A DNA stretch of 64,000 nucleotides from Schizochytrium sp. TIO01 (Eukaryota > Protista > Bigyra: Labyrinthulomycetes). Location: the NCBI GenBank assembly GCA_004764695.1, contig SMSO01000007.1, positions 310,001 through 374,000 of the forward strand, written 5' to 3'. Positions 5,290 through 40,925 of the stretch are shown piece by piece. Numbering within the stretch: position 1 is the first letter of the stretch; each line of letters begins with the position of its first letter. The notes under the pieces are model-generated. The model did not search any database, was not told where the DNA came from, and worked only from the letters and a program-made list of their open reading frames with translations. Position numbers and translations under genes: made by a program.

Positions 5290-6153
5290 TTAATCTTCAA
5301 CCTGAATTGGAGGGCTTGGGCTCTCCTTGTTCGCGCGGAGTAGGAATACAGTTCGATTGAGGGTGTTTGTCTGGTACGGCAGGCTATCCTCAATCTGCCA
5401 TCCCTCAAGAAGCAGTGGGAGACGTTCTTTGCCATAAATGCGGTGGGCATTCCAAATGATAGTATCTTGACCGGTCGGAATACTCAAGAGAACGTATGAT
5501 GCCTTTTCTCTGAGGTGGTCCATAACAATCAAATCGGCGTCAGGACACAGTGGGTCCCCATATCTACCGAGCCCATCGTGCTGGAGCGCATCTACAACTA
5601 CAGCGAGTCTCACACGCTTGATTTCTTCTGGGAGACGATTTCCACGGAAAACTTGTACACGCGGATGCTCTATTCTGAGACGATTATATTCGATTGTAAA
5701 AATTTGCTTAGCTCCAAGCCGAAGTAAAAGACCTTCTAAAATAGGTTTTTGCGAGCCGAATACGGCAACTTTGGTCACTAGACGCGGGTGAGACCGAAGC
5801 ATTTCTGCAACAACAGGTTCATATTCTTCCGCACGCGCCCCAAACATTCCTACATCGGCTGCAGAATACGCATAATATGATCCTTGGCCCTCAAAAGAGT
5901 CATCTACAAAGGATTCTTCGTCATAAACAACTGGGATGCGTCCATCTCTTGAAAATGCATTAAACATGTGATCTGGAATTCGCTCTGGGGGCATTTCTCC
6001 CGGTGTTGGCTTCTCGCACTGGGTTTCCTTAAACAAGATCCTATCCAAGGCACCCCCCCTGACATCTACTTCGTCACACTCATTCAAGTCCGCATTTGTC
6101 GCTGCAAGAGTCACCGTGCCAATTAAAACCACACCAAGCTTTACAACCCTCAT
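5290..6153 (-). CDS. DUF268-family SAM-dependent methyltransferase-like protein with N-terminal signal/anchor
   Basis: Motifs VAVFGSQKP, TIEYN, HDGLGRYGDPLCPDAD, PTGQD..WNAHRIYG..RL match my recollection of DUF268. N-terminus is hydrophobic. Confidence 0.8.
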   Translation of the reverse strand: MRVVKLGVVLIGTVTLAATNADLNECDEVDVRGGALDRILFKETQCEKPTPGEMPPERIPDHMFNAFSRDGRIPVVYDEESFVDDSFEGQGSYYAYSAADVGMFGARAEEYEPVVAEMLRSHPRLVTKVAVFGSQKPILEGLLLRLGAKQIFTIEYNRLRIEHPRVQVFRGNRLPEEIKRVRLAVVVDALQHDGLGRYGDPLCPDADLIVMDHLREKASYVLLSIPTGQDTIIWNAHRIYGKERLPLLLEGWQIEDSLPYQTNTLNRTVFLLRANKESPSPPIQVED

Positions 6154-6396
6154 CTAACACGGCCTGCAATCTTCAGTCTCAGCTCATACGCAGCGACCTG
6201 TTTCTGATTTGCTTAGCTTATCTTAGCTTATCGATCTCATTTCTTTTTAAAACTTTATCCTCCTTCATGCACCAATCAATTCATATATATTCCTATGCCG
6301 CTCAACCCTCCAACTCAGTGTTGGGGCCATCAGCCCAACAGATCATCCGGACTTCCATGATACCCCTCTGGAATTCCCGATGTGTTGAGGATGAAT

Positions 6397-6499
6397 AGCG
6401 GGTTAGCTCAGAGGTAGAGTGTTGGGCCCATACTTCCGATTCTTCCGAGGGTCAGGAGGAGGCACCCAAAAGTCGGCGGATCGAAACCGCCACCCGCTA
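6397..6499 (+). tRNA. tRNA-iMet: Initiator tRNA-Met (CAT), 31-nt intron 6433-6463, type A (copy 1)
   Basis: Acceptor AGCGGGT/ACCCGCT (A1:U72), anticodon stem TTGGG/CCCAA, C33-CAT-A37, T-loop ATCGAAA (A54/A60). These are eukaryotic initiator hallmarks. 72 nt after intron removal. Confidence 0.95.
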
Positions 6500-6544
6500 C
6501 AATAACAACAACAGTTCGAGGATCCTCGAGCGCATTCCTTTTTT
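6500..6544 (+). terminator. Conserved tRNA 3' trailer: 14-nt spacer, GTTCGA hairpin, T6 Pol III terminator (same layout after all six tRNAs)
   Basis: caataacaacaaca-gttcgaggatcctcgagc-gcattcc-tttttt. Confidence 0.75.
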
Positions 6545-7393
6545 ACCCTGTCTTTTTTTTTTCCTTCCTTGTTTTTATTTATAAAGCAAAACACCTTTTT
6601 TTCCCTTCTCCTCTCTTAAAGTTCAAGTATGAGAACATTGGAATATCCTCTGAAGAGTAGTGCTTATCCCATATCAATGATGCATTGTAATTAATTGGGT
6701 CTTTGCCGAGAAGTGGAGGCTAGGTAAGAAAATGGCATGGCCAAGGAACCACCAACCTCGAAACGCTACAAGTCAAGCAAACCTTCAATACAAGCCAGCA
6801 AAGGGCTTCAGCCAGAAGTTTGGAGTCTCAGCAAGCGCCCGTTGGTTGCCCAGTCGCATGTACGCAAGTGACGACGTTGAACGTACCTATGGCTGACCCT
6901 ACCAGCATCCACGATAGGAGTGTCCTCCGCCAAGAAAGTGCTGCTTCACAAAGTCGAGCATCCCCCGGTATAGACTTGTTGTTTGGCGAGATGATAACTC
7001 TTCAAAACTTGGAGAATCCAAGGTTTTCGAATGCCCCAAATGCAAACCTAGTCGGTCGTGACATCTACGCCATCAGAGGCATCCTTTGCGCAACCTGTCC
7101 AAGGACATTCTTCAAAACAATGTGATTGAGTCATGAGTTGTAATTTTAACCCCAGATTGCATGGCACCGGAGGAAATGTAAGTTTTGCAAGTTGTACAGG
7201 GTTTCGTTTTTAGCCATTCCTGATAGATCGAGGCGAATCTGGGTAAGGTCACATTTTTTTCCTCTACAGAGAGTTAAAGGTCATATATTACCATACCTCT
7301 CTTACCATCATCATTCAATGATGAGAACATTTCGTTCATCATCGGTGACTCCTAAAGTCACCCTTGAAGATTGTCCGGTTCTTCCGGTGAGAT

Positions 7394-7496
7394 AGCGGGT
7401 TAGCTCAGAGGTAGAGTGTTGGGCCCATACTTCCGATTCCTCCGAGGGTCAGGAAGAGGCACCCAAAAGTCGGCGGATCGAAACCGCCACCCGCTA
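7394..7496 (+). tRNA. tRNA-iMet: Initiator tRNA-Met (CAT), 31-nt intron, type A (copy 2)
   Basis: Exons identical to copy 1; intron cttccgattcctccgagggtcaggaagaggc. Confidence 0.95.
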
Positions 7497-8156
7497 CAAC
7501 AACAACAACAGTTCGAGGTTCCTCGAGCGACTTCTTTTTTCCCCTTTCCTTTTTATTTATTAAAAAAAATAAAATTTCAATCCCAGACAGTCAAAACATG
7601 TTTTGTTATTTTCCACCCATGTTCAAGTTCTTGAAGGGCGATTCAGTTTTTTCTCAAACTTCAAAGAGAGAATGTTAATCCAAAGGCCGTGAAATGAAGT
7701 TTAATTCCTTCATTCTATGAATAATTTGAATTGGATTAGCTTTCTGCGTTTCGACTTTTAGAGAGAAGAATAGATAAACTATTATTAATTATTCTTAGTT
7801 AAAAAAGTAGAAAGAGAAAAAGCTAATTGAACTTACGTTCGGGTCAGTATGGTGATGTGTTTCTCCATGAAAAGAAAAACTGTCACTACCGCCAGCGGTA
7901 ATAACTTAAAATGTTATAAAAATTAAGTTTGGATGAGAAACCTCAAGCCAAAATAATAATTCACAAAAAGAATGTTTAGCTATGTGTATACATAGCTACA
8001 CTACCATAATGAGGCCATTTTAGAAATTTGTCGGAGACATTTTACAAAAGTGATTGCTGCGATTTGGCAACATCAGCTCATCAAAGATCAATTTTCTGAA
8101 GAGTTCGGCTGCTCCAACAGTAGCCCCTGAAGATTGTCCGGTTCTTCCGGTGAGAA

Positions 8157-8259
8157 AGCGGGTTAGCTCAGAGGTAGAGTGTTGGGCCCATACTTCCGAT
8201 TCCTCCGAGGGTCAGGAAGAGGCACCCAAAAGTCGGCGGATCGAAACCGCCACCCGCTA
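8157..8259 (+). tRNA. tRNA-iMet: Initiator tRNA-Met (CAT), 31-nt intron, type A (copy 3)
   Basis: Identical to copy 2. Confidence 0.95.
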
Positions 8260-8382
8260 CAATAATAGCAACAGTTCGAGGATCCTCGAGCGACTTCTTT
8301 TTTCCTCACTATGATTATTTCATTTTAGTTTTTGAGTTACTCAAAGTTTATATCGTTCAGGTTCCAATGCTGCATCATGGAA

Positions 8383-8484
8383 AGCGGGTTAGCTCAGAGG
8401 TAGAGTGTTGGGCCCATACTTCTGATTCTACTAGAATCATTAGGAGGCACCCAAAAGTCGGCGGATCGAAACCGCCACCCGCTA
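8383..8484 (+). tRNA. tRNA-iMet: Initiator tRNA-Met (CAT), 30-nt intron 8419-8448, type B (copy 4)
   Basis: Same exons; intron cttctgattctactagaatcattaggaggc. Confidence 0.95.
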
Positions 8485-9113
8485 CAATACCATCATCAGT
8501 TCGATTCCTTCGAACATTGCTTTTTTCTTTACTTTTTCCCTCTTTGAATTTATACACTTACTACTTATCAATAAATGATATAGATATGTAGGCCTTTATA
8601 AGTATATTTTTTTAAATGAGAGAAATATAATATTTTAAAGTAAAAATAAATAAAAGTATTGCTGTCACCTTTGGAAAGGAAACAAACACAAGTGGAATTT
8701 GTTTATGTTATTTGAGCAGAGCAATTTGCCATGATAAGCTTAGTTTTCTGATGCGCCATTCTGATAGGTTTGTGTTTCTTATTTTTCTAGCGGTACAAAA
8801 AATATCAAACACAATTATAATAGATAGGTAAACATAATTAAATAAACGATAAACCTTATATATTCTAATTTTTTATATCAACACGATCATCATTCCGAAT
8901 TCCTTCGGAACATCAAAGTGTTTAATTCATCCTTTAGTTATCTCACGTTGTCATAAGAAATTCCAATAGAAGGTTCCACTAGAATTGATAGGCTTTGAGG
9001 TAGTCAAATCTCTATCAGGCACACGAATAATTGTTTATGTATAATTGGCTTACAGAACTACTTACATTTACCCTTAATTTACTACTATTTTACAACTCTA
9101 TACTCAGGCTGCC

Positions 9114-9780
9114 ATGCCAATACATAAATTGCAAAAAATCGAACCAAACAAAGAGATTGAAGATTGCCCGGGGAGCAGTGCTGTCTATCCTGACAGGGGG
9201 TACTCCAATGTTGATTTTGATGCTGCCAAGGAGCTTAGTGTTGGTGCTGTGATGACGAAATTGTTTGCTTATACGACTTACATTGCGGCGAAGTGTTTTT
9301 TACATGGTGTCATGATCTTCATGATTCGAATCATTCTTGCTTGTTCTGCAGTAATTTTGCTCTGCTTTGTTTGACTATTCACTTCCTCAATTATGTTGCT
9401 CCTTCGGGTGTTTGCTCTGGTTTCGATTGGGGTTTTCTTTCTAGCCTTTCTATTCTGGTGACCAGATTACTTTGCTGTGCAGTTGGGCATGGCTCCTTGG
9501 CCACTTCCTAGCGGTCCGGCGAAGTATGATTCCGATGGTTCTACGATTTGTCAGGATGATGAATTGAAGAGAAGAATGTGCATACGAATGCTCTCATTTT
9601 GTAGCAATTCCAGTTCCTCAAATGATTCTCACCACTGCTCTATTGCTTGTACCTTGTGACAAGGCTTTTACTATGGCCAGGCTGCTTAAGATTTGACAGT
9701 GGATGCTTGTAGCCGTGCTCCTGTGAGTATGAGTAATTCTTGTACAGCTTTATTCGTTGCCAATGAAACAAACATAGAAA
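9114..9780 (+). pseudogene. Disabled membrane protein: hydrophobic helices followed by a Cys-rich region
   Basis: ORFs 9114..9374 and 9477..9659 share one frame, interrupted by TGA 9372, TGA 9459, TGA 9657 and TAA 9687. Homologous to the 21.3-22.6 kb pseudogene. Confidence 0.65.
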
Positions 9781-9913
9781 TCAGTAACTATACAATCTTT
9801 TATATTTGATTAAAGAATCATTGTCATCAACTTCCAGTAAAGCATACCGCTTCACAGGAATTGGGCGCGTCGCAAGATGCACCCACAGAAATGTCCGGTT
9901 CTTCCGGTGAGAT

Positions 9914-10016
9914 AGCGGGTTAGCTCAGAGGTAGAGTGTTGGGCCCATACTTCCGATTCCTCCGAGGGTCAGGAAGAGGCACCCAAAAGTCGGCGGATCG
10001 AAACCGCCACCCGCTA
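9914..10016 (+). tRNA. tRNA-iMet: Initiator tRNA-Met (CAT), 31-nt intron, type A (copy 5)
   Basis: Identical to copies 2 and 3. Confidence 0.95.
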
Positions 10017-10138
10017 CAATAATAGCAACAGTTCGAGGATCCTCGAGCGACTTCTTTTTTCCTCCCTCTGATTATCTCATATTAGTTTTTGAGTTACTCA
10101 AAGCTTATATGGTTCAGGTTCCATGCTGCATCATGGAA

Positions 10139-10240
10139 AGCGGGTTAGCTCAGAGGTAGAGTGTTGGGCCCATACTTCTGATTCTACTAGAATCACTAGG
10201 AGGCACCCAAAAGTCGGCGGATCGAAACCGCCACCCGCTA
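10139..10240 (+). tRNA. tRNA-iMet: Initiator tRNA-Met (CAT), 30-nt intron 10175-10204, type B (copy 6)
   Basis: Same exons; intron cttctgattctactagaatcactaggaggc. Confidence 0.95.
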
Positions 10241-10312
10241 CAATACCATCATCAGTTCGATTCCTTTGAACATTGCTTTTTTCTTTACTTTTTTTCCTCT
10301 TTGTTTTTGATA

Positions 10313-10972
10313 TTCGAGGTCGCTCGAACCTGAGCAGCCCCTGCGGCCCTCTCGTGCCGTTGATTACGAGCTCGCTCACGGGCGACGTCATGCAATTAAT
10401 TACTGAATTCCACTTGGTCTCAGCCAGGTATCTGTCATCATGATCTCCCGAAGAACTCCAGCTTGCATCATCTCGAAGTCGCAGTTGCTCGTGGACAATT
10501 GAGGCAGCGCAAGCGACCTGATCCCATTTGCCTTGAGATGTCTTGCGTTGTCTTGTCTTGACACCAAGATGGTCGTGGGTTTTGTATTCCAATGGGACAA
10601 ACCTGCATGTGCAGGTATCAGCCGCGATATACAGATATAGCTAGCAAACAACGTGCCGGAAGCAACGAGGATCTCCGGCTTGCGATCACAGTCTCGAAGA
10701 CCGTCAGCGAAATTGGACTCGTTCCACGAACTGGCAAGCCTTCTGAACTGGGGGAGCCCCTCGTGCTCGCTCCAGAAGAGTTATCGAAGTTGACGGTGAC
10801 AATGCTGAAGAACTGATACTTGCTTACTTACTTACTTATTTATTTGCTACTAAGGACGCACACACCTAATTATTCATCCATCATGATACCTCCGTTTTAG
10901 TTTCTACAGTATATATCGATATCAACGTCGACGCGAGGTCTATGATTGCGAATCTTGAAGTTCGAGATGAAT
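10313..10972 (+). repeat. Left arm of ~650-bp diverged inverted repeat (partner 23297-23926)
   Basis: Collinear reverse-complement blocks, e.g. gattacgagctcgctcacgggcgacgtcatgcaattaatta, ttgtcttgtcttgacaccaaga, ggactcgttccacgaactggcaag, cgtcgacgcgaggtcta, gcgaatcttgaagttcgaga. Confidence 0.9.
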
Positions 10973-16500: not shown

Positions 16501-17380
16501 TTTTCTTTTAATTTTCTTTCAATTTTCTCCCTGGAGGGAGAAGGTAGGTAAATTTTTTGCTGCGATGCGCTGCGCAGTGCCGCCCGATTTGAACCTCGCA
16601 ATGGCCAAATTCCTTGATGAAAGGCGCCCAAAAAGAAAAACTCTTTCCAATTTAAGACGTAGTACTATTCAAAGGTACTACATTACCACGGATCTTTCAT
16701 GGGCTATACAGTTGCATTGAGCTTTCACGTGCTTTATTTGGGCCTTTCTTCCTACTTGGACTACCGCGATGGTCTCTCCAGTCTGAGAGTTCTAGTCACT
16801 CCCCATTTCATGTGAAAGAATATCCAGTAGCGATTGTTCTTTCATGGATAATTGTGTCAACTTCCAATCCTGTTCCTGATAACTTCCAGTTTTGGTCATC
16901 AGAAAATCAAATATTCGACTATCAAGAACGAAGCCTCTCTTTTTGATTTACTATCATTGTGGAATAGAAAATTTCTTCAGAGCGTTAACTCTTCTTCTCA
17001 GGATTTCTATCGAGGAAGGATGACAAGTCAGATCAGCAGCAACGGCGGCGCCTGAGAGTAGAGGCACGGCAGCATAAAAGGGTGAACCTGATGACCCCTT
17101 TTTACTATTATAACAACCCTTCAGAGCAGCTTGCGCGATCCGCAGCGATGCTAGGAATTGACTGGTCGGTCCGTCGCCGCATAATTGCTCTTGTTTTAAT
17201 GTCCCTTTTTTTCATTGTGGTCGGTTTACTGCTCTCGCGGTATTCTTGATTTGTTTCCCCTTTTCAGCAACTTTATAAATATACAAAATTTTCAAAAGGA
17301 ATAAGATTTCAAATAAAAATGAATTTAAAAAAGAAAAATTGTAATTAACTTTTTAAGAAGAAAAGGAGGAAAGGAACCTT

Positions 17381-17764
17381 TCATTTAAGGAGGGAAGGAT
17401 CGAAGCCGATACGCCTATAGTCCTCGTCGCTTTTGATGTTAAGGAGGGAGGGATCGAAGCCGATACGCTTACAGTCCTCGTCGCTTTCGATGCCGTATGC
17501 CTGCCCGATTATCGACCACGTGCGTTCGAATTCAGGGTTATCAAATATGCTTTCCCGCCGTCTGAAGTCGTCCACGGTCGCTTGGGGGTCCCGCATAGCT
17601 GGAGGCACGTAACGAGTGTAGTCAGGGAACCTCTTTGCGGTCAACTCATTCAATTCCTTGAACGTCGCAGTAATTCTTTGGAGGGCCTCACACATCTCAG
17701 CATCATCATATTTCCTCTGAGCCTTCGGCACCGGCACCACCTTCCTTGTGGTCATGGGTTTCAT
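17381..17764 (-). CDS. Small orphan protein, variant 1 (127 aa, C-terminal 18-aa tandem repeat)
   Basis: Intact ATG-to-stop; shares VPKAQRKYDDAEM, MRDPQA and IF..PEF.R with 19492..19857. Confidence 0.6.
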   Translation of the reverse strand: MKPMTTRKVVPVPKAQRKYDDAEMCEALQRITATFKELNELTAKRFPDYTRYVPPAMRDPQATVDDFRRRESIFDNPEFERTWSIIGQAYGIESDEDCKRIGFDPSLLNIKSDEDYRRIGFDPSLLK

Positions 17765-18927
17765 CCTTCTTCTTTACCTGTACTTGCAAAGCTTCTTGAG
17801 GTTTCGGGTTTGGAGTTTGCACGTGCTGTATTTTCGGTGTCCTGAGTCTCGCTCCCTGCCAGGCTAGGGTTTTCCTTAGAAAGTGCTTACACCAGTAGAG
17901 TACTATCATAGTATTCGTTAGCAGCCCGCATCGTCCCTGATTTCGAGTATCAGTGAGCTGGAGGAGACAGATTCAGTTTGTTGGAGTGTGGTTTCTTCGT
18001 TTTACTGATCAGGATCGATTGCAGAAGGAACTGGACATTGCTGCGGTCTGAAAATGAATAGCTTCAATAAGATCACCGATTTCCACTTACCCAAGTCAGT
18101 TTTGATGTCTAGAACTTCATCAAGCGACCTTTGAAAATCCTCGAAACATGGCCCGGAAGAAATTTCCGTCGGATCATACGCAAGTATATGTCTTTGCACA
18201 AAATCCACAGTCAATGTGAATCTTGTAAAATCGGGAAAAGGACAAGCTTTGCGCCAGGAAGCAATTGATATTGCAAATGAGCAATTAGACGTAGTATTCC
18301 GAAAGTTATAGCCACTTCGTGCATTAGGACATCTACACTCCCGTTCAAGTATGAGCTATGTTCTTTCGAAGGAGCTACTTCTCTAGCTTGTTCAGGTTTC
18401 ATCCAGGTGTCCTTTTCTACATCAAGATGTGTCTCACAGCGTGGACAATAGATCGTATTTTTCATTGAAGAAAACCTCTTAGTAGGGTACCAAAGTCCGG
18501 CAGCTCTTTCTCAGCACCTACAGGCCATCTGGGCGCAACTTTCGAAATTACCCGTATCAAATCTTTTTCAAGCCTGTGGAGAGTTAGAAATATGCGAAAC
18601 CTCTTTAATGCATTCGACTATAATTTTTTCTTTCATAATCCGTAATGTCTAAAGTCTTTCCTCGCTTCGTTCATCTCCCTCATATTCGTGTTCGGGCTCC
18701 TCGTTAAGATCTCTTTCGATCCCAATTTGATCAAGGAAAGGTTCCAAAATAATTTGATTCTTCAGCATTTGGATTGATGGTTTCATTTCGAGAACGTTTT
18801 GAACCTGCGCCACGAGGTTTGGCTATTAATTATCTTGGTCTTGATGATCTCTTCTACAGTCTTCCTCACTTTGAAGATGTATGGGTTTGAAGCTTTTACC
18901 GTTCAACTCCTCCAATCCAACTCGCAT
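17761..18927 (-). pseudogene. Disabled orphan gene with a CPRC motif (copy 1)
   Basis: Coding-like fragments with several stops and frameshifts. The final TGA overlaps the ATG of 17381..17764. Confidence 0.5.
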
Positions 18928-19179
18928 GAGTGACTCGGCGTCTAGTTTACAAGCAATATATTAGAAGACTAGATAGCGAACTTTCAGGTCAGTGGAATGC
19001 GAGGCAGTTAAATCACAGTGACGTAAGAGGGAACAGAAAGCTTTTCTTAGACAGAGAATGAAATTCAAAAGAAAGAAGCTTAGACTTTCCAAGTCTCTCT
19101 TTTTGAATTACTATCATTGTGGAATAGAAAATTTCTTCAGAGCGTTAATTCTTCTTCTCAGGATTTCTGTCGGGGAAGG

Positions 19180-19419
19180 ATGACAAGTCAGATCAGCACG
19201 GCGAATGCAGCAACAACGACGCCTGAGAGTGGAGGCGCGGCAGCAAACAAGGGTGAACCCGATGACCCCTTTTACTATTACAACAACCCTTCAGAGCAGC
19301 TTGCACGGTCCGCGGCGATGTTAGGAATTGACTGGGCGGTCCGGCGCCGCATAATCGCTCTTGTTTTAATGTCCCTTTTTTTCATTGTGGTCGGTTTATT
19401 ACTCTCGCGTTATGCTTGA
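19180..19419 (+). CDS. Small tail-anchored-like protein (79 aa); the copy at 17020-17249 is frameshifted
   Basis: MTSQIS...RRRIIALVLMSLFFIVVGLLLSRYA with a C-terminal TM helix. May be the 3' remnant of a longer decayed gene starting ~16600. Confidence 0.45.
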   Translation: MTSQISTANAATTTPESGGAAANKGEPDDPFYYYNNPSEQLARSAAMLGIDWAVRRRIIALVLMSLFFIVVGLLLSRYA

Positions 19420-19491
19420 TTTGTTTTCCTTTTAAGTAGTAGCTTAAAAAATAAGAAATGAATCTAAAATTAAAAAAATGAAATTGACTTT

Positions 19492-19857
19492 TTAAGAGAA
19501 AGAGGAAAGGAACTCCTGTTTGTCCTCGGGGTAAACAGGGCGTGTAATGGTAAGGTCAAAATCGTCCGGGAGTTCGAAGAGGTGATACTTTTTATTGACT
19601 TCCTCCGTAATGCGCACGAACTCAGGGTCTTCAAAGATGCGTTCCCTGTTCTTCATGGCGTTCACGGCCGCTTGGGGGTCCCGCATAATCTCAGGCACGA
19701 CAAGGGGGCGGTTAAGAATTCTCTCCATCTCCCGATTCGATTCTTCGACCTCGTCCGCAATTCTCTTGAGGAGCGCAGCCATCTCCGCATCATCATACTT
19801 CCTCTGAGCCTTCGGCACCAGCTTCACCTCCTCCATGTCAATCTCAATGCGTCTCAT
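19492..19857 (-). CDS. Small orphan protein, variant 2 (121 aa)
   Basis: Intact paralog of 17381..17764. Confidence 0.6.
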   Translation of the reverse strand: MRRIEIDMEEVKLVPKAQRKYDDAEMAALLKRIADEVEESNREMERILNRPLVVPEIMRDPQAAVNAMKNRERIFEDPEFVRITEEVNKKYHLFELPDDFDLTITRPVYPEDKQEFLSSFS

Positions 19858-20987
19858 CCTTCTTCTTTACCTGTACTTGCAAAGCTTCTTGAGGTTTCGG
19901 GTTTGGAGTTTGCACGTGCTGTATTTTCGGGGCCCTGAGTCTCGCTCCCGGCCAAGCTAGGGTTTTCCTTAGAAAGTGCTTTCACCAGTAGAGTACTATC
20001 ATAGTATTCGTTAGCAGCCCGCATCGTCCCTGATTTCGAGTATCAGTGGGCTGGAGAAGACAGATTCAGTTCGTTGGAGTGTAGTTTCTTCGTTTTACTG
20101 ATCAGGATCGATTGCAGAAGGAACTGGACATTGCCGCGGTCTGAAAATGAATAGCTTCAATAAGATCACCGATTTCCACTTACCCAAGTCAGTTTTGATG
20201 TCTAGAACTTCATCAAGCGACCTTTGAAAATCCTCGAAACATGGCCCGGAAGAAATTTCCGTCGGATCATACGCAAGTATATGTCTTTGCACAAAATCCA
20301 CAGTCAATGTGAATCTTGTAAAACCAGGAAAAGGACAAGCTTTGCGCCAGGAAGCAATTGATCTTGTAATGAGCAATTAGACGTGGTATTCCGAAAGTTC
20401 TCCCGTTCAAGTATGAGCTATGTTCTTTCGAAGAAGCTACTTCTCTAGCTTGTTCAGGTTTCATCCAGGTGTCATTTTCTACATCAGGATGTGTCTCACA
20501 GCGTGGACAATAAATCGTATTTTTCATAAAAGGAAACCTTTTAGTAGGGTACCAAAGTCCGGTAGCTCTTTCTCAGCACCTACAGGCCATCTGGGCGCAA
20601 CTTTCGAAATTACCCGTATCAAATCTTTTTCAAGCCTGTGGAGAGTTAGAAATGTGCGAAACCTCTTTAATGCATTCGACTATAAATTTTCTTTCATAAT
20701 CCGTAATGTCAAAGTCTTTCCTCGCTTCGTTCATCTCCCTCATATTCGTGTTCAGGCTCCTCGTTACGATCTCTTTCGATCCCAATTTGATCAAGGAAAG
20801 GTTCCAAAATAATTTAATTCTTCAGCATTTGGATTGATGGTTCCATTTCGAGAACGTTTTGAACCTGCGCCACGAGGTTTGGCTATTAATTACCTTGGTC
20901 TTGATGATCTCTTCTACAGTCTTCCTCACTTTGAAGGTGTATGGGTTTGGAGCTTTTAACGTTCAACTCCTCCAATCCAACTCGCAT
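19854..20987 (-). pseudogene. Disabled orphan gene with a CPRC motif (copy 2)
   Basis: Near-identical to 17761-18927 with a ~33-bp deletion. Confidence 0.5.
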
Positions 20988-21279
20988 GAGTGACTCGGCG
21001 TCTAGTTTACAAGCAATATATTAGAAGACTAGATAGCGAACTTTCAGGTCAGTGGAATGCGAGGCAGTTAAATCACAGTGACGTAAGAGGGAACAGAAAG
21101 ATTTTCTTAGACAGAAAATGGAATCAAAAATTGGAAATGTAATTCAACTTTCTAAATTTATCCTCTAATCTACACCGAGACTTTGAGTGGTTGTGTTACC
21201 TAGAGGCAGAAGTAATTTTATAAGTACTTAATAATAAAATTACCCTTTTAAAAATAAAATTTGACTGGTACACATAGAA

Positions 21280-23296: not shown

Positions 23297-23926
23297 ATGC
23301 GTCTCGAACTTCAAGATTCGCATCGTAGACCTCGCGTCGACGGTGATATCGATGCACTGTAGAAACAAACCAAAACGGAGGTACCATGATGCCGGAATAA
23401 TTGGGTGTGTAAGCAAAGAACTCACGTACAAGTATCAGTTCTTCAGCATTGCCGCCGTCAACTTCGATCGCTCTTCTGGAGCGAGCACGAGGGGCTCCTC
23501 CAGTTCAGAAGACTTGCCAGTTCGTGGAACGAGTCCAATTGCGCTGACGGCCTTCGAGACCGTGATCGCAAAGGTTTGCCCATTGGGCGGGGTTCACAAA
23601 ACCCACGACCGTCTTGGTGTCAAGACAAGACAACGCAAGACAACGCAAGACAACGCAAGACATCTCAAGCAAGGCAAATGTGATCAGGTCGCTTGCGCCG
23701 CCTCAATCGTCCGCGAGCAAGTTCGAGAGCTGCGACTTGGAGAAAGATGACGCAAGATGGAGTTCTTCTGGAGATAGATCTCGATGAAAGATGCATGTGG
23801 GACCAGGTGGCAATAATATTAATTAATTGATTAATTAATTAATTGCATGACGTCGCCCGTGAGCGAGCTCGTAATCAGCGGCACGGGCTGGCTGCTCAGG
23901 TTCATGCTGCGAGCGACGACCTCGAA
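23297..23926 (-). repeat. Right arm of the inverted repeat (partner 10313-10972)
   Basis: Reverse complement of the left arm with indels; (AGACAACGCA)3 expansion. Confidence 0.9.
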
Positions 23927-24490
23927 GAAGTCGAGGCAGCGACAGCATCGTTGTCGCTCGAGGCACCAACTTCTGTAGGGTATGATCCGAGCAGTTTTCG
24001 CAGTTTTCTGTTCGAGAATCGCGTGGGAATTCCGTGGAATTGGCGATTCTGCTAGGAAGGCGGTAGGCACTGCTAGCACCGCGCAGGAGGAGGCTTGCGG
24101 GAACACCGCTCGAGCAGTCCAGCTATAGCTAGCGATGGGCACGCTCGCGCTTAGGGCTGGGGCCATGGGGCGCCACGGCAGAGCTCGAAGATTGGCCGGC
24201 GGGGCCAGTTTGGCGGCGTGGAAGAACCTCTGGCTGGAGTAGAGGCAGGAGAGCTTGTGGATGCATCTGTAGATCAAAGCACTTGGGAAATCAACACTAG
24301 GTACTGTGGCGATACAAAGAAGAACCCAACTCGCAGCAAAACCCGAACTCGCGGAGGCGATCGAAGCAGCGAAGAGAAAGGGAGAGCTAGGTTGCTTGCG
24401 TACATTGTCAAGGCTCTAAGCAGCTGTCTGAGACACGCCGTTGAATTGCAAACCAATTGATCGCTGGCAATATCTGCGCGAGAGAGGAAT

Positions 24491-25744
24491 ATGGCAACGC
24501 GAGAGATGACATCCTGGGAAGAGCATACCACACGTGCGCATGAAGCTCGCGAACTGTTCTTCTTTGATGAAGATGACAAAGATGTTGTGTATCTGAATGG
24601 CGCCTTCCTTGGCCCTACTCTTCGAGCTAGCGCAGAAGCTGCGATGAAGGGTATGCTGACACAGAGTAAACCTTGGAATGTAAGCTTTCCCAAAGACTTC
24701 AACGAGCCCGTGGAAAATCTCCGCGAGGTCTTTGGCGAGATCATCAATGCGCCTGCACGCAATATTGCCATTTTGCCCTCCGTGGCATATGCAGTGTCGA
24801 CTGTCGCAGTCCATGTGAGCAAGATTCTAGAACCTGGTGACAAAATCCTGGCGCTTGATGGCCAATACACCAGCAACATTTTGGGTTGGCAGCGCCTTTG
24901 TGAAGAGCGCGGGTCTGAAATGTTGATTGTCCCTGAGCCCGAGGATGGCGACTGGACCAGTGCTGTCATGAAGGCTCTTGAAGCGGACCAACCTCCCAAG
25001 CTAATTGTACTCCCGGCGGCTTGCCACTGGTGTGACGGATCTTTCATTGACACCGTTACTATCACCAATCGTGCGCGGGAGCTTCAAGCGCGCATCTTTC
25101 TTGATGGAACCCAATCTGTCGGTGTTGAGCCCGTTGATGTGGCTGCGCTCAAGCCTGATTATCTTGCTGTTGCAGCATACAAATGGCTCCTTTGTCCTTA
25201 CGGCACCGCCTTCATGTATGTTGCTGATGAACACTGTGATCAAGAGCCTCTCGAAATGCATGGATTCCAGCGTAAGCATGCTGGTATGCGCCCTGATGGT
25301 TCATATGACGTGCAATGGCTTTACAACGAGCGCGCTGGGGATTACAAGGATGGTGCAAGGCGCTACGATGCTGGCGAGCGCGCCAGCTGGGTGGTCATGG
25401 CCATGGCGCTTGAAGGTGCCAAGCAAGTGAGAGACTGGGTCAAGGAGGATGTTGTGGGTAACCACACTCGCCAGCTTCTCCAGTATCTGAGCGATGAAGC
25501 AACAAAACTTGGATTTATCTGCCCTTCTCCGAAGCTATGCAGCTCTCATATTATGGGTGTTCGTGTGCCTGATTCGACTCCAGAGGAGCTTTCCCGTCTT
25601 TTGGGACTCCTGAAAGAAGCGCGGGTGCTTGTGTCTCTCCGGGGTAACGCGATCCGCGTCTCGCCAAATTTGTGGTCCACTAAGGACGACATTGATGCTC
25701 TTCTCAAGGTTCTTGCCGTGTATATGGAGGAGAAAAAAGCATAA
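24491..25744 (+). CDS. Aminotransferase class V-fold PLP enzyme (kynureninase/cysteine desulfurase-like), paralog 1
   Basis: YLNGA, DGTQSVG, AAYKWLLCPYG (PLP lysine), RRYDAGE, IRVSP motifs; 417 aa, intronless. Confidence 0.93.
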   Translation: MATREMTSWEEHTTRAHEARELFFFDEDDKDVVYLNGAFLGPTLRASAEAAMKGMLTQSKPWNVSFPKDFNEPVENLREVFGEIINAPARNIAILPSVAYAVSTVAVHVSKILEPGDKILALDGQYTSNILGWQRLCEERGSEMLIVPEPEDGDWTSAVMKALEADQPPKLIVLPAACHWCDGSFIDTVTITNRARELQARIFLDGTQSVGVEPVDVAALKPDYLAVAAYKWLLCPYGTAFMYVADEHCDQEPLEMHGFQRKHAGMRPDGSYDVQWLYNERAGDYKDGARRYDAGERASWVVMAMALEGAKQVRDWVKEDVVGNHTRQLLQYLSDEATKLGFICPSPKLCSSHIMGVRVPDSTPEELSRLLGLLKEARVLVSLRGNAIRVSPNLWSTKDDIDALLKVLAVYMEEKKA

Positions 25745-27043
25745 TCATATCGTGTTCTTCATTATAAAGAAGCTTTGTTAAATGATCAACATATTTTCTA
25801 CTTGCACACCATCTTTAAAAACTTAATCCGATGAGCGGGCAAACTAACCTGCAACAATCTTAAAAAAACCTTGTTCTTAGCTCTAAGCAAATTGCGTGCA
25901 TCATAAAATAGTTAACAAATTACCCTAATGAATATTTAAAGCTTCTTGGATTGTGTTCCACACATTCTTTCTTGTTTAGAGTCTCCAACGAGTCTCCGAC
26001 ATCTTTCAACTTTTAAAATTTCATTTTCTAATTCCACTCTTCATAAAGTCTTGCCAGCACAGGGAAACGAGGTCCTCTCGCCTTCTTCCCGTGTAGCATT
26101 TATTTGAAGCCCTAAGTCATGATATTTTGAAGTATTAGGTTGAGGCATTTCACACCATCTCAGCGAAGCGAATTAGTACCCAGGTAGATAGCACCGATTG
26201 ATTTCTTTTTTCAAGCGAATCTCCCCCCGCAAAAAGGACAAGTTATTTTTATTTCTTTTAAATTATAAATTAAAAATTAGTAACAATAAAAGTAGACAAA
26301 ATTATCTTTCAACGTTTGTTTTATAAAGAGCTTTAGGGTATCTCTAGAGGCAGAGGTGCGTACCCACACCGGCAAGGAATGCCTTGTTCGCAGAACTAGC
26401 AAATCTAGAACTTTCGGGTAGACTTGGAAAGCGCATGCTGCTGGAGTGTTGCGCGCTCTGAGATCGACGAGATCGTGCTTCAACTGTTATTTAAGTAGAG
26501 GAACGTGCCATCCGAAGATATTGAATGGGTGCGAACGATACTGTTTCGGGAAGGCTCTCGAACTACCGATTGCTGGGATCACAAATATCCTTTGGTGAAC
26601 CCCTCCTGCAGACAAGCAAAAACAGCCTGGAAAAGAGACGCGCGGGAATGCAGGCTGGGTCGTGACTTTTTATAAGGCTGGTGATAAATAGTTCGTTCTG
26701 CACAGCACAAGAGTGAGTTGAGCGCTCATTGCGCTCGAACGAAAATCGCTTTCATGCCTCAGAGTGCACAGGAAGCTAGCTAGCTACCTGTCTTTGCAAT
26801 AAACAAGCTACACTTTTCGTGGCTTTCTTGCATGCAAAATCTTGTTACCAAGTGCAGCAAATACCAAACTTGAAAACCTAAATTCCTCCATCAAAAACTC
26901 AAGCGCTTTGCTTTCATTGCCTACTGAGTAGGGGCGAGCAAATTTGAACAATTCGGGAGCTAGTCACTTGGCTTCAGTACTTGACCTGCTCGTAGTACCT
27001 GTACCTTACTCTGAAAACATCTCGACATTGACAAGCCTTGAAA

Positions 27044-28291
27044 ATGATATCTTGGGACAAGCATACGGCAGACGCACAAAAGGCGCGTGAGCTATTCTTC
27101 TTCGACGAGGAAGGTGACGAAAATGTTGTCTATCTCAATGGCGCTTTCCTTGGACCAACGCTTCGAGCTAGCGCTAAGGCGGCACAAGATGGCATTTTAT
27201 CACAAGGGAAGCCATGGAAGACTTTGTCCCCTACGCATTTTGAAAAGCCTCTGGAGGATCTGCGTGAGGTGTTCGGAGACATTATTAATGCACCAGCGCA
27301 AAATATTACCATCGTCCTCTCAGTAGCCTATGCAGTCGCAACTGCAGCTCGGCACATTGGCCCGCGCCTTGAACCCGGGGACAAGGTTCTTGTCCTTGAC
27401 AGTCAATTCAAAAGCAATATTCTGGGCTGGCAGCGCCTCTGTGACGAACGCAACGCTGAGATAGAAATTATCCCTCAACCTGAAGATGGTGACTGGACCA
27501 ACGCAGTCATGAAGGCACTTGAAGCGGACCAGCCTCCTAAACTTCTTGCTCTTCCCGCGGCTTGTCACTGGTGCGATGGATCTTTCATAGACACTGTGCG
27601 TATCACTCAGCGTGCACATGAACTGCAATCGTTGATTTTTCTTGACGGTACCCAATCCGTCGGCGTCGAGCCCATTGACGTGGCAGTGCTCAAACCAGAC
27701 TACCTCGCAGTTGCAGCATACAAATGGCTCCTTTGTCCCTATGGCACTGCTTTCATGTATATCTCTGATGAGCATTGCAAGCACGAGCCTCTCGAAATGC
27801 ACGGGGGTCAACGCAAAAGTGGTGGCATGCGTCCTGATGGCTCATATGACGTGCAGTGGCTTTACAAGGAGCGTGCCGAGGACTACAAGGATGGTGCAAG
27901 GCGCTATGATGCTGGTGAGCGCTCCAACTGGGTATTGATGGCTATGGCACTTGAAGGTGCTAAACATGCTCGTGCTTGGGCAAAAGGAGATATTGTAGGC
28001 AGTCATACCCGCCAACTTCTCCGCTACCTGAGTGATGAAGCAACGAAATTGGGGTACGTCTGTCCTTCTCCTGAGCTGTGTAGCTCTCACATTATGGGCG
28101 TTCGTGTGCCTGGCTCGACACCAGAGGAACTTTCTAGTCTCGTAAGTCTCTTGAAAGAGGCAAATGTACTCGTATCTCTCCGCGGCGATGCTGTGCGTGT
28201 GTCACCAGGTGTATGGTCCACCAAGGCCGATATCGATGCTCTTCTCAATGTCCTCTCCAAATACTTGGAGGGAAAATCGCGTAAATGCTAG
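27044..28291 (+). CDS. Aminotransferase class V-fold PLP enzyme, paralog 2
   Basis: Same motifs and collinear with paralog 1; first ATG at 27044. Confidence 0.93.
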   Translation: MISWDKHTADAQKARELFFFDEEGDENVVYLNGAFLGPTLRASAKAAQDGILSQGKPWKTLSPTHFEKPLEDLREVFGDIINAPAQNITIVLSVAYAVATAARHIGPRLEPGDKVLVLDSQFKSNILGWQRLCDERNAEIEIIPQPEDGDWTNAVMKALEADQPPKLLALPAACHWCDGSFIDTVRITQRAHELQSLIFLDGTQSVGVEPIDVAVLKPDYLAVAAYKWLLCPYGTAFMYISDEHCKHEPLEMHGGQRKSGGMRPDGSYDVQWLYKERAEDYKDGARRYDAGERSNWVLMAMALEGAKHARAWAKGDIVGSHTRQLLRYLSDEATKLGYVCPSPELCSSHIMGVRVPGSTPEELSSLVSLLKEANVLVSLRGDAVRVSPGVWSTKADIDALLNVLSKYLEGKSRKC

Positions 28292-39536: not shown

Positions 39537-40925
39537 TTACTGCTTGCGCTTCTTTTGCGGTGGTTTAGTTTGCTTGCTCGAAGCGGGAGCAGCAGCCTTT
39601 TTTGAAGACTTCGCACGGCGAGGGGCCTTGACAACTTCCTCCTCCTCTTCCTCCTCTTCTTCTTCCTCTTCTTCGTCTTCATTTTCATCATCATCGAACA
39701 AGTCCAACTCGCCAACCACATCGTTTTCATCAGGGATGGGTCCAAGAGGACGTTTCTTGGGCACGCCGTACTCGTCAAGCTCGACCTTTGGCTCGTTACG
39801 GACAGCCGGTGCGCTTGTACTGAACAAGATACTCGTGAGTTGCTGGCGGGCATAGAGACGCACAATAGTTGCTCGTGTATCAACATTGCCTACAAGAAGG
39901 TGCCGATCAAGGCCACCGGCTACAATGAGTGGTAAACTAGAGTGCTTCTTGACTGAGCGGATAGACCCGTTGAGACCCTTGAATGCGCGCACAACGCGCT
40001 GTTGCCTCAAGTCAACACAGCGAATTCCACCAACAGCATCTCCCACTGCAACAGTGTAATCGTTAAGGGCTTCAATGCAGTTCAGGTGTCTAGACTCCGC
40101 TGAAATGTTCTTCTGGTACAACTCTGTGGCGGTCTTCATGTCAACATCCGCCACAGGGCGACGTTGGGCCCGGGTGTCATACAGGCGCACTTGGCCATAG
40201 CCTGTGCATGTTGCAATGCGTTCTGGAAGTCCTCCTCCTATAGCCTGCTTTTGACCTTTATCAGGGTTTTCCACACCACCCAAGAAGCACATATCTGTGA
40301 CCCACACCGGTACACGAAGCTCAATTTTATCCAGAGGCACATTCTTTGCCTGGAAGCACCGAGTCCACTTTTCCATATCCCACATTGAAAGAAGATTCTC
40401 CTTGCCACCCGTAGCTAACAAACCACTTGTAGAGCTCACGCGAGACTTCGAGAGCGGTCCGTTCACAGTGTGCTTCGCAAGAAGCTCAGTGCCAAAGACT
40501 TTGCTATCATCATTATGAGAAGGGTCGAAAGAAACCACTTGGACGTTTCCTTTCGCAGACGAAACTACGATACGGTCTCCAAGAATATCAAGTCCTGTCC
40601 AAGCATTGTCCACATCGATTTCGACAGCCTTACATGCCAAGGGTTCCGGCACCTCGAGCACAACGTGCTGCTTTTCGGCATTTTGCTCAATATGGTCAAC
40701 AGCAGGAATTCGCAGGAGACGAAGACCTGAGCTTCTTGAAAGCGAAACTACGCCGAGGTTTTCGTCATCGGGGCTTGCCCAAGCAAGGGCCTCGACACGG
40801 TCTTCGCGACTGGTTTGGCCGCACTTGGCAAGGGTCTTGCCGCTTGTAGGCTCCCAGAGCTTGACAAGACCAAGAGCATCTCCGGTCACTACGCGGAGAG
40901 AGTCGCCGACACTTGACTTCGACAT
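39537..40925 (-). CDS. WDR74: WD40 ribosome biogenesis protein WDR74/Nsa1
   Basis: ATGGKEN, FQAKNV..D...LRVPVW, VRLYDTRAQRRPV, GGLDR; acidic/basic tail; first ATG 40925. Confidence 0.9.
   Translation of the reverse strand: MSKSSVGDSLRVVTGDALGLVKLWEPTSGKTLAKCGQTSREDRVEALAWASPDDENLGVVSLSRSSGLRLLRIPAVDHIEQNAEKQHVVLEVPEPLACKAVEIDVDNAWTGLDILGDRIVVSSAKGNVQVVSFDPSHNDDSKVFGTELLAKHTVNGPLSKSRVSSTSGLLATGGKENLLSMWDMEKWTRCFQAKNVPLDKIELRVPVWVTDMCFLGGVENPDKGQKQAIGGGLPERIATCTGYGQVRLYDTRAQRRPVADVDMKTATELYQKNISAESRHLNCIEALNDYTVAVGDAVGGIRCVDLRQQRVVRAFKGLNGSIRSVKKHSSLPLIVAGGLDRHLLVGNVDTRATIVRLYARQQLTSILFSTSAPAVRNEPKVELDEYGVPKKRPLGPIPDENDVVGELDLFDDDENEDEEEEEEEEEEEEEVVKAPRRAKSSKKAAAPASSKQTKPPQKKRKQ

What the first reader, a model, noticed from the sequence alone, without database searches (positions are those of the whole stretch)
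6397..10282. Six initiator tRNA-Met genes, each followed by a fixed-length spacer and a co-varying GTTCGA hairpin: candidate dicistronic tRNA-small RNA unit
Seen: after every discriminator A there is a C/A-rich spacer of exactly 14 nt whose sequence varies (caataacaacaaca, caacaacaacaaca, caataatagcaaca, caataccatcatca). A hairpin beginning GTTCGA follows, then T6 within 5-7 nt. Type A hairpin is GTTCGAG-ga/ttc-CTCGAGC (6514, 7511, 8274, 10031). Type B is GTTCGA-ttcct-TCGAAC (8499) or -TTGAAC (10255). Stem changes keep pairing (U.G to U-A, G-C to G.U) while sequence beyond the T-tract diverges between types. Known: Pol III tRNA trailers are usually short and unconserved, and RNase Z can release functional downstream RNAs, as in plant tRNA-snoRNA dicistrons. 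Inference: a selected ~40-nt trailer RNA is co-expressed with tRNAi. Alternatives are a termination-assisting hairpin, or an extra downstream B-box (type B reads GTTCGATTCC) offsetting the A54 B-box of initiator tRNA.
Basis: partly seen in the sequence, partly recalled or inferred. Interest (0 to 1): 0.8.

Follow-up and report, generated by a model that had tools for sequence, protein, structure and literature searches.

The report
Hairpin tail on initiator tRNA genes
In what is likely a thraustochytrid protist, six copies of the initiator tRNA gene share an unusually long, conserved tail predicted to fold into a small hairpin just before the stop signal, which likely helps end or trim the tRNA precursor rather than making a separate small RNA.

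Summary
Six intron-containing initiator tRNA-Met genes are each followed by a 14-nt A/C spacer, a GTTCGA hairpin and T6 5-7 nt later. The six copies are only two lineages (4 type A, 2 type B). 'Co-varying' is overstated: 0 of 7 pairs change on both sides, the 5' arm never changes, and both stem changes are one-sided wobbles. The trailer is still conserved between lineages (69-72%, like the intron) while the adjacent flanks are not, and a simple neutral model keeps the stem in only 0.7-3% of runs. Best reading (0.42): a cis-acting structured pre-tRNA trailer, with hairpin-to-T-tract spacing matching hairpin-assisted Pol III release in yeast. Rivals: passive remnant (0.28; nearby DNA is enriched in small hairpins, and a trailer-like copy lies alone at 8879-8914), extra B-box as in Dictyostelium (0.17; consensus fails in 4 of 6 copies), separate small RNA (0.12; no Rfam family, no C/D boxes, no usable expression data). 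No related genome was reachable, so cross-species conservation is untested.

The parts
6397..6499 (+). tRNAi-Met(CAT) gene A1, intron 6433-6463
6500..6544 (+). A1 trailer: spacer 6500-6513, hairpin 6514-6531, T6 6539-6544
7394..7496 (+). tRNAi-Met(CAT) gene A2, intron 7430-7460
7497..7540 (+). A2 trailer: spacer 7497-7510, hairpin 7511-7528, T6 7535-7540
8157..8259 (+). tRNAi-Met(CAT) gene A3, intron 8193-8223
8260..8303 (+). A3 trailer: spacer 8260-8273, hairpin 8274-8291, T6 8298-8303
8383..8484 (+). tRNAi-Met(CAT) gene B1, intron 8419-8448
8485..8526 (+). B1 trailer: spacer 8485-8498, hairpin 8499-8515 (5' arm fits the B-box consensus), T6 8521-8526
8879..8914 (+). solo type-B-like trailer: 14-nt spacer and perfect 7-bp hairpin 8893-8910, no tRNA remnant upstream, no T-tract, B-box core absent
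9914..10016 (+). tRNAi-Met(CAT) gene A4, intron 9950-9980; recent duplicate of A3
10017..10060 (+). A4 trailer: spacer 10017-10030, hairpin 10031-10048, T6 10055-10060; identical to A3
10139..10240 (+). tRNAi-Met(CAT) gene B2, intron 10175-10204; recent duplicate of B1
10241..10282 (+). B2 trailer: spacer 10241-10254, hairpin 10255-10271 with one G.U, T6 10277-10282

Best explanation
Each of the six initiator tRNA genes ends in a conserved 36-39 nt tail before its T6, and this tail likely works in cis on the precursor: its predicted hairpin would help RNA polymerase III let go at the T-tract, and its unpaired A/C linker would leave the RNase Z site open. Shown: the sequence, spacing and conservation. 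Predicted: the fold, and that the tail does not pair with the tRNA body. Inferred from yeast and general tRNA biology: Pol III reads to T6; the hairpin folds in the exit channel 5-7 nt upstream and stands in for the acceptor stem, which is too far away; RNase Z cuts after the discriminator and the tail leaves as a short-lived by-product. A role in shielding the precursor's 3' end from exonucleases is a further, untested possibility.
For: Between lineages A and B the trailer is 69-72% identical (p=0.001 against shuffles in 3 of 3 pairs), while the 35 nt upstream (34-44%) and 35 nt past T6 (50-53%) are not above shuffles (p 0.12-0.62); conservation stops at the transcript's edges. A neutral substitution model keeps the stem in all tips in 0.7-3.0% of runs. 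The spacer has no T-run and 0-1 G. In the predicted precursor the first 7 trailer bases are 96-100% unpaired in 5 of 5, and trailer-to-tRNA pairing is about 0 in 4 of 5 against 4.5-6.2 pairs for shuffled trailers. In yeast Pol III assays a hairpin enhanced release when 0 or 7 nt before the T-tract but not 18 nt, and 251 of 270 yeast tRNA genes have the terminator within 7 nt (bioRxiv 10.1101/2021.08.27.457903, passages); here the acceptor stem is 36-39 nt away and the hairpin 5-7 nt away.
Against: The same paper found no gain from a hairpin at T6, the length seen here. The model does not explain why the terminator is far away in the first place, nor why the 5' arm is invariant in sequence. Only two lineages and two stem changes, neither two-sided. 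The simulation used 16 hand-counted events, substitutions only, on a stem picked after the fact. DNA between the genes holds 9 perfect 6-bp hairpins against 2.8 expected (0 of 200 shuffles), so hairpins may arise here without selection. In A3 trailer-body pairing was no better than shuffled (51 of 100), and that test partly restates the hairpin. More distant upstream DNA (-36 to -70) scored above shuffles in 2 of 3 A-B pairs (p 0.007, 0.029). No expression or 3'-end data.
Confidence: 0.42

Rival explanations
1. Passive remnant. One ancestral gene happened to carry a hairpin, perhaps from a partial copy of its intron or a decayed neighbouring T-arm. Duplication and gene conversion spread it, and template switching keeps the arms complementary without selection.
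For: Two lineages only, one recent 97% block duplication. Trailer identity equals intron identity. 11% of random 38-mers of the window hold a 6-bp hairpin. The cluster's intergenic DNA is hairpin-rich, unlike 5 of 5 other stretches tested. A trailer-like copy with no tRNA and no T-tract has a longer, perfect stem. The type A intron and type B trailer share 11 of 12 nt (0 of 1000 shuffles, one of 4 comparisons). T-loop-like sequence 16-17 nt after a tRNAi occurs in 2 of 88 unrelated control genes.
Against: Conservation runs 36-39 nt past the 3' exon but ends within a few bases on the 5' side, which neither drift nor exon-anchored conversion predicts. The spacer, which template switching would not protect, is 71-79% identical between lineages. 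The intron may itself be constrained. The hairpin lacks T-arm geometry (sequence).
Confidence: 0.28
2. Extra B-box. GTTCGA is a second TFIIIC site 35 bp downstream of the initiator's A54-type internal B-box, and the 3' arm is kept only to mask the self-complementary motif in the RNA.
For: The 5' arm is invariant while the 3' arm varies. The distance is 35 bp in 6 of 6. Dictyostelium has external B boxes about 41 bp downstream of 66% of its tRNA genes, consensus GTTCRAnYC (PMC3159450, passages). Type B matches exactly.
Against: GTTCRANNC fails in 4 of 6 copies, the whole A lineage. An invariant hexamer arises in about 6% of neutral runs. 86 of 88 control tRNAi genes with the same internal box have no GTTCRA at +10 to +20. 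A DNA site would not need to lie before the terminator (inference). The solo copy keeps the hairpin and loses the core.
Confidence: 0.17
3. Dicistronic unit. RNase Z releases a stable RNA of about 40-45 nt, starting CAA and ending in U's, which acts in trans.
For: The anatomy would produce such a piece. Conservation covers exactly this piece. tRNA-snoRNA, tRNA-like-miRNA dicistrons and trailer-derived small RNAs are described (PMC3141230, passages). A freestanding copy exists.
Against: No Rfam family; no C or D box; the stem is far shorter than a pre-miRNA (own knowledge); loop and 3' segment differ between lineages, leaving little to pair with a target; the freestanding copy has no tRNA promoter upstream and no T-tract.
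Confidence: 0.12

Closest known systems
Hairpin-assisted RNA polymerase III termination (yeast; bioRxiv 10.1101/2021.08.27.457903)
   Same: Hairpin within 7 nt of a T-tract on the transcribed strand of a Pol III gene.
   Different: In yeast the acceptor stem normally supplies the structure and T6 needs no help; here a separate hairpin sits 14 nt past the tRNA, before a T6.
External B boxes of Dictyostelium tRNA genes (PMC3159450)
   Same: A GTTCRA motif at a fixed short distance 3' of a tRNA gene in a protist; type B matches GTTCRAnYC.
   Different: Type A lacks the last C; the motif is half of a hairpin and lies before the terminator; it is not known here whether other tRNA genes carry it.
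Plant tRNA-snoRNA and gammaherpesvirus tRNA-like-miRNA dicistrons; trailer-derived small RNAs (as cited in PMC3141230)
   Same: A tRNA gene followed by conserved sequence before a distal T-tract, releasable by RNase Z.
   Different: No C/D boxes, no long hairpin, no Rfam family, no evidence of a stable product.
Eukaryotic initiator tRNA-Met gene with canonical 37/38 intron
   Same: CAT anticodon, A1-T72, three G-C pairs closing the anticodon stem, A54 and A60, intron one base 3' of the anticodon.
   Different: Nothing in the exons; the unusual part is the trailer.

Membership tests
Eukaryotic initiator tRNA-Met gene | Cloverleaf with CAT anticodon | tested here: met
Eukaryotic initiator tRNA-Met gene | A1-U72, three G-C pairs in the anticodon stem, A54 and A60 (features recalled, not from a call) | tested here: met
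   cloverleaf printed; exons identical in 6 of 6
Eukaryotic initiator tRNA-Met gene | Intron, if present, at 37/38 (PMC4090602, passage) | tested here: met
Hairpin-assisted Pol III terminator | Hairpin within about 7 nt of the T-tract | tested here: met
   5-7 nt in 6 of 6; criterion
Hairpin-assisted Pol III terminator | T-tract of sub-optimal length (T4 or very long) that needs help | tested here: not met
   T6 in 6 of 6; T6 gained nothing in yeast; this organism's threshold is unknown
Hairpin-assisted Pol III terminator | Stem mutation increases read-through | not testable with these tools
   needs a transcription assay
External B box (Dictyostelium type) | Matches GTTCRAnYC | tested here: not met
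   2 of 6 copies match
External B box (Dictyostelium type) | Fixed position about 41 bp downstream | tested here: inconclusive
   35 bp from the internal box start in 6 of 6; the reference point in the paper's passage is not explicit
External B box (Dictyostelium type) | Present at most tRNA genes of the genome and bound by TFIIIC | not testable with these tools
   no genome held; no other credible tRNA gene in the window
Dicistronic tRNA-small RNA | Downstream RNA of a recognisable class (C/D boxes, pre-miRNA hairpin, Rfam family) | tested here: not met
   ANANNA matches in the A-rich spacer are trivial and there is only one hairpin
Dicistronic tRNA-small RNA | No terminator between the tRNA and the downstream element | tested here: met
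   first T4 or longer at +37 to +40 in 6 of 6
Dicistronic tRNA-small RNA | Stable released RNA | not testable with these tools
   24 of 24 listed runs are contigs
Dicistronic tRNA-small RNA | Conservation with two-sided covariation across species | tested here: inconclusive
   0 of 7 pairs within the window; no close relative found

The most novel reading that the evidence does not exclude
Thraustochytrid initiator tRNA genes are dicistronic: RNase Z frees a conserved hairpin RNA of about 40-45 nt, of a class not in Rfam, made in step with initiator tRNA, its invariant GUUCGA arm being the functional face.
Probability: 0.12. Interest if true: 0.72.

Novelty: new variant of a known kind. Interest (0 to 1): 0.36.

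Why it matters
If the hairpin acts in cis, this is a natural tRNA gene in which the structure next to the terminator is separate from the tRNA itself. That allows a clean test of the disputed role of RNA structure in Pol III termination, in a lineage for which my search found no Pol III paper. One set of four mutants separates RNA structure, DNA B-box and trans-acting RNA. If passive, it is an ordinary tRNA gene cluster.

Tried and rejected
No whole genome is held, so other tRNA genes of this organism could not be checked. The bacterial-mode tRNA tool found 0 genes because of the introns; 13 other low-threshold ARAGORN calls were not supported by Rfam and were dropped. Sequencing runs: no RNA holder listed; 24 of 24 are contigs. 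Four of the 24 were laid on 6000-8600 only: three RNA-guess runs cover parts of A3/B1 with contigs of depth 2-7 that cross the T6, and leave A1 and A2 almost bare; contigs show no ends, strand or level, so this is not used as evidence. Metagenome scan: 113 loci, 112 read, 120 matches, 116 with 45 nt or more of trailer, 99 distinct, 88 with a CAT anticodon. None has a 30-31 nt intron, so none is a close relative; they serve only as unrelated controls. T4 lies within 12 nt in 52 of 88; none within 70 nt in 20 of 88; 0 of the 10 with a first T4 at 25 nt or more has a hairpin before it. Viral scans: 0 hits; 8 hits, two at tRNA-like sequence, none with this hairpin. Prokaryote genomes: 82 hits, 0 initiator-like. 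The hairpin-plus-T pattern is in 0 of 202 loci. Rfam's Vault match (E 10) is noise. T-arm relic geometry rejected from the sequence. The similar hairpin at 10313-10329 comes from a dispersed repeat. Pfam on 7 intergenic frames: nothing at cut-off. Earlier findings: 5 look-ups, nothing.
Full report
Observation. Rfam finds six tRNA genes on the + strand, and nothing else, in the window. ARAGORN with introns calls all six Met(CAT) with a 31-nt (type A: 6397, 7394, 8157, 9914) or 30-nt (type B: 8383, 10139) intron after position 37. The exons are identical in 6 of 6 and carry the initiator marks A1-T72, three G-C pairs in the anticodon stem, A54 and A60 (marks recalled; seen). After each discriminator come 14 nt of A/C-rich sequence, a 6-7 bp hairpin starting GTTCGA, 5-7 nt, and T6. 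The first run of four or more T is 37-40 nt after the tRNA in 6 of 6.

Source. The only hit at E 1e-30 for the WD40 protein at 39540-40922 is a Hondaea fermentalgiana NSA1 at 52% identity, a thraustochytrid. The window is therefore likely from another thraustochytrid; this rests on one protein. No genome is held.

How independent are the copies? 8135-8546 and 9892-10303 are 97% identical, so A4 and B2 repeat A3 and B1. There are two lineages. On the trailer alignment 4 of 7 pairs never vary, 2 vary on one side (U.G/U-A, G-C/G.U), 1 is lost in type B and 0 change on both sides. 'Co-varying' is not shown.

Is the trailer constrained? Between A and B it is 69-72% identical and the intron 71-74% (p=0.001 against 1000 shuffles, 3 of 3 pairs), while the 35 nt upstream (34-44%) and the 35 nt after T6 (50-53%) are not above shuffles. 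A1 against A2/A3 shows the same shape: trailer 87%, flanks 51-59%. Against this, the -36 to -70 segment scored above shuffles in 2 of 3 A-B pairs. A neutral model with 16 hand-counted events kept the 6-bp stem in all tips in 0.7-3.0% of 100,000 runs and the 5' hexamer in about 6%; the stem was chosen after the fact and indels were treated as substitutions. The fixed 14-nt length is weak evidence: only a few indels separate the lineages at all. A 6-bp hairpin is common by itself: 11% of random 38-mers, and 15 of 231 T-tracts in the window, the trailers included, have one within 8 nt.

Two new observations cut both ways. First, 8879-8914 is a type-B-like trailer with a 14-nt CAA-starting spacer and a perfect 7-bp stem; its alignment score of 36 exceeds 300 of 300 regional and 60 of 60 window-wide shuffles. 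Relative to B1 it has one extra base in each arm, which pair, and has lost the GTTCGA core. No tRNA remnant lies upstream and no T-tract follows. If selected, it favours structure over B-box; if dead, it shows that stems are perfected here without selection. Second, the 3124 nt between the genes hold 9 perfect 6-bp hairpins against 2.8 expected (0 of 200 shuffles), while 5 of 5 other stretches show no excess. Template switching near tRNA genes is my inference for this, and it weakens the neutral simulation. The type A intron and type B trailer also share 11 of 12 nt, a possible origin of the trailer by partial intron duplication.

Mechanism. I favour a cis-acting structured trailer (0.42). In yeast Pol III assays a hairpin promoted release at 0 or 7 nt from a T-tract but not at 18 nt, the acceptor stem normally supplies that structure, and 251 of 270 genes end within 7 nt (bioRxiv 10.1101/2021.08.27.457903; abstract, outline and passages). 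Here the acceptor stem is out of range and the hairpin is in range. The linker is predicted to stay unpaired and the trailer not to invade the tRNA (A3 is the exception). RNase Z cleavage after the discriminator, La binding to the U tail and surveillance of hypomodified initiator tRNA are standard (PMC7954030, passages). The main weakness is that T6 needed no hairpin in that study, and the model does not say why the terminator is distant. Shown: anatomy and conservation. Predicted: folds. Inferred: everything about function.

Rivals. Passive remnant 0.28. Extra B-box 0.17: Dictyostelium has external B boxes about 41 bp downstream of 66% of tRNA genes (PMC3159450, passages; the GTTCRANNC core is restated in PMC5391098, passages), the 5' arm is invariant and 35 bp from the internal box, but 4 of 6 copies fail the consensus. 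Separate small RNA 0.12: precedents exist (PMC3141230, passages), but there is no Rfam match, no C or D box and no usable expression data.

Relatives. None was reached. The metagenome scan gave 88 distinct CAT genes, none with this intron; 2 of 88 have GTTCRA at +10 to +20, both followed by the ATCC of a T-loop, and 0 of 202 fetched loci hold the hairpin-plus-T pattern. So the trailer is not a general feature of such initiator genes, and its conservation among thraustochytrids is untested. One DNA run shows a contig with a third intron variant at 6433-6468 whose listed changes turn two T.G pairs of the intron hairpin into C-G where type B has T-A (table 3, 86 rows hidden; folds): tentative two-sided change in the intron, with that gene's trailer not visible.

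Novelty. Ten literature searches listed no paper whose title or abstract start describes this trailer; the library lacks most subscription papers, I read only passages of eight papers (also PMC5006619, PMC4090602 and 10.64898/2026.07.28.741200) and opened no supplements. The parts all have precedents. Verdict: a real, probably constrained pre-tRNA trailer; new variant of a known kind; interest 0.36.

Noticed in passing
window 8879-8914: Solo copy of the type B trailer with a longer perfect stem, no tRNA upstream and no T-tract.
   Followed up: partly
window 6200-9913, between the genes: About threefold excess of perfect 6-bp hairpins over shuffles, not seen in five other stretches.
   Followed up: partly
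window 6433-6463 and 8419-8448: The tRNA introns fold into hairpins; a third variant in one DNA run suggests T.G, T-A and C-G exchange at two pairs.
   Followed up: partly
window about 6670-6900: Dispersed repeat: many contigs of all four runs align here at 80-90% likeness, summed depth over 100 times the single-copy level in the DNA run. Not identified.
   Followed up: no
window 10326-10967 and 23302-23903 (opposite strands): Two diverged copies of a repeat; one begins about 45-85 nt after tRNA B2. No Pfam family in the frames tested.
   Followed up: partly
window 8436-8600: Run X9 (RNA by guess) shows summed contig depth 228 and 60 in the two bins over the B1 3' end, absent in X3 and X7; the piece is not listed, so it may be an unrelated contig.
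   Followed up: no
L051, L094, L008, L113: Unrelated initiator tRNA genes followed within 16-26 nt by T-loop-like or half-tRNA sequence.
   Followed up: no
window 24461-25744 and 27032-28291: Two similar genes in tandem; the first hits Pfam aminotransferase class V.
   Followed up: no
window 16931-21010: Tandem duplication of about 2.1 kb at 77-97% identity.
   Followed up: no
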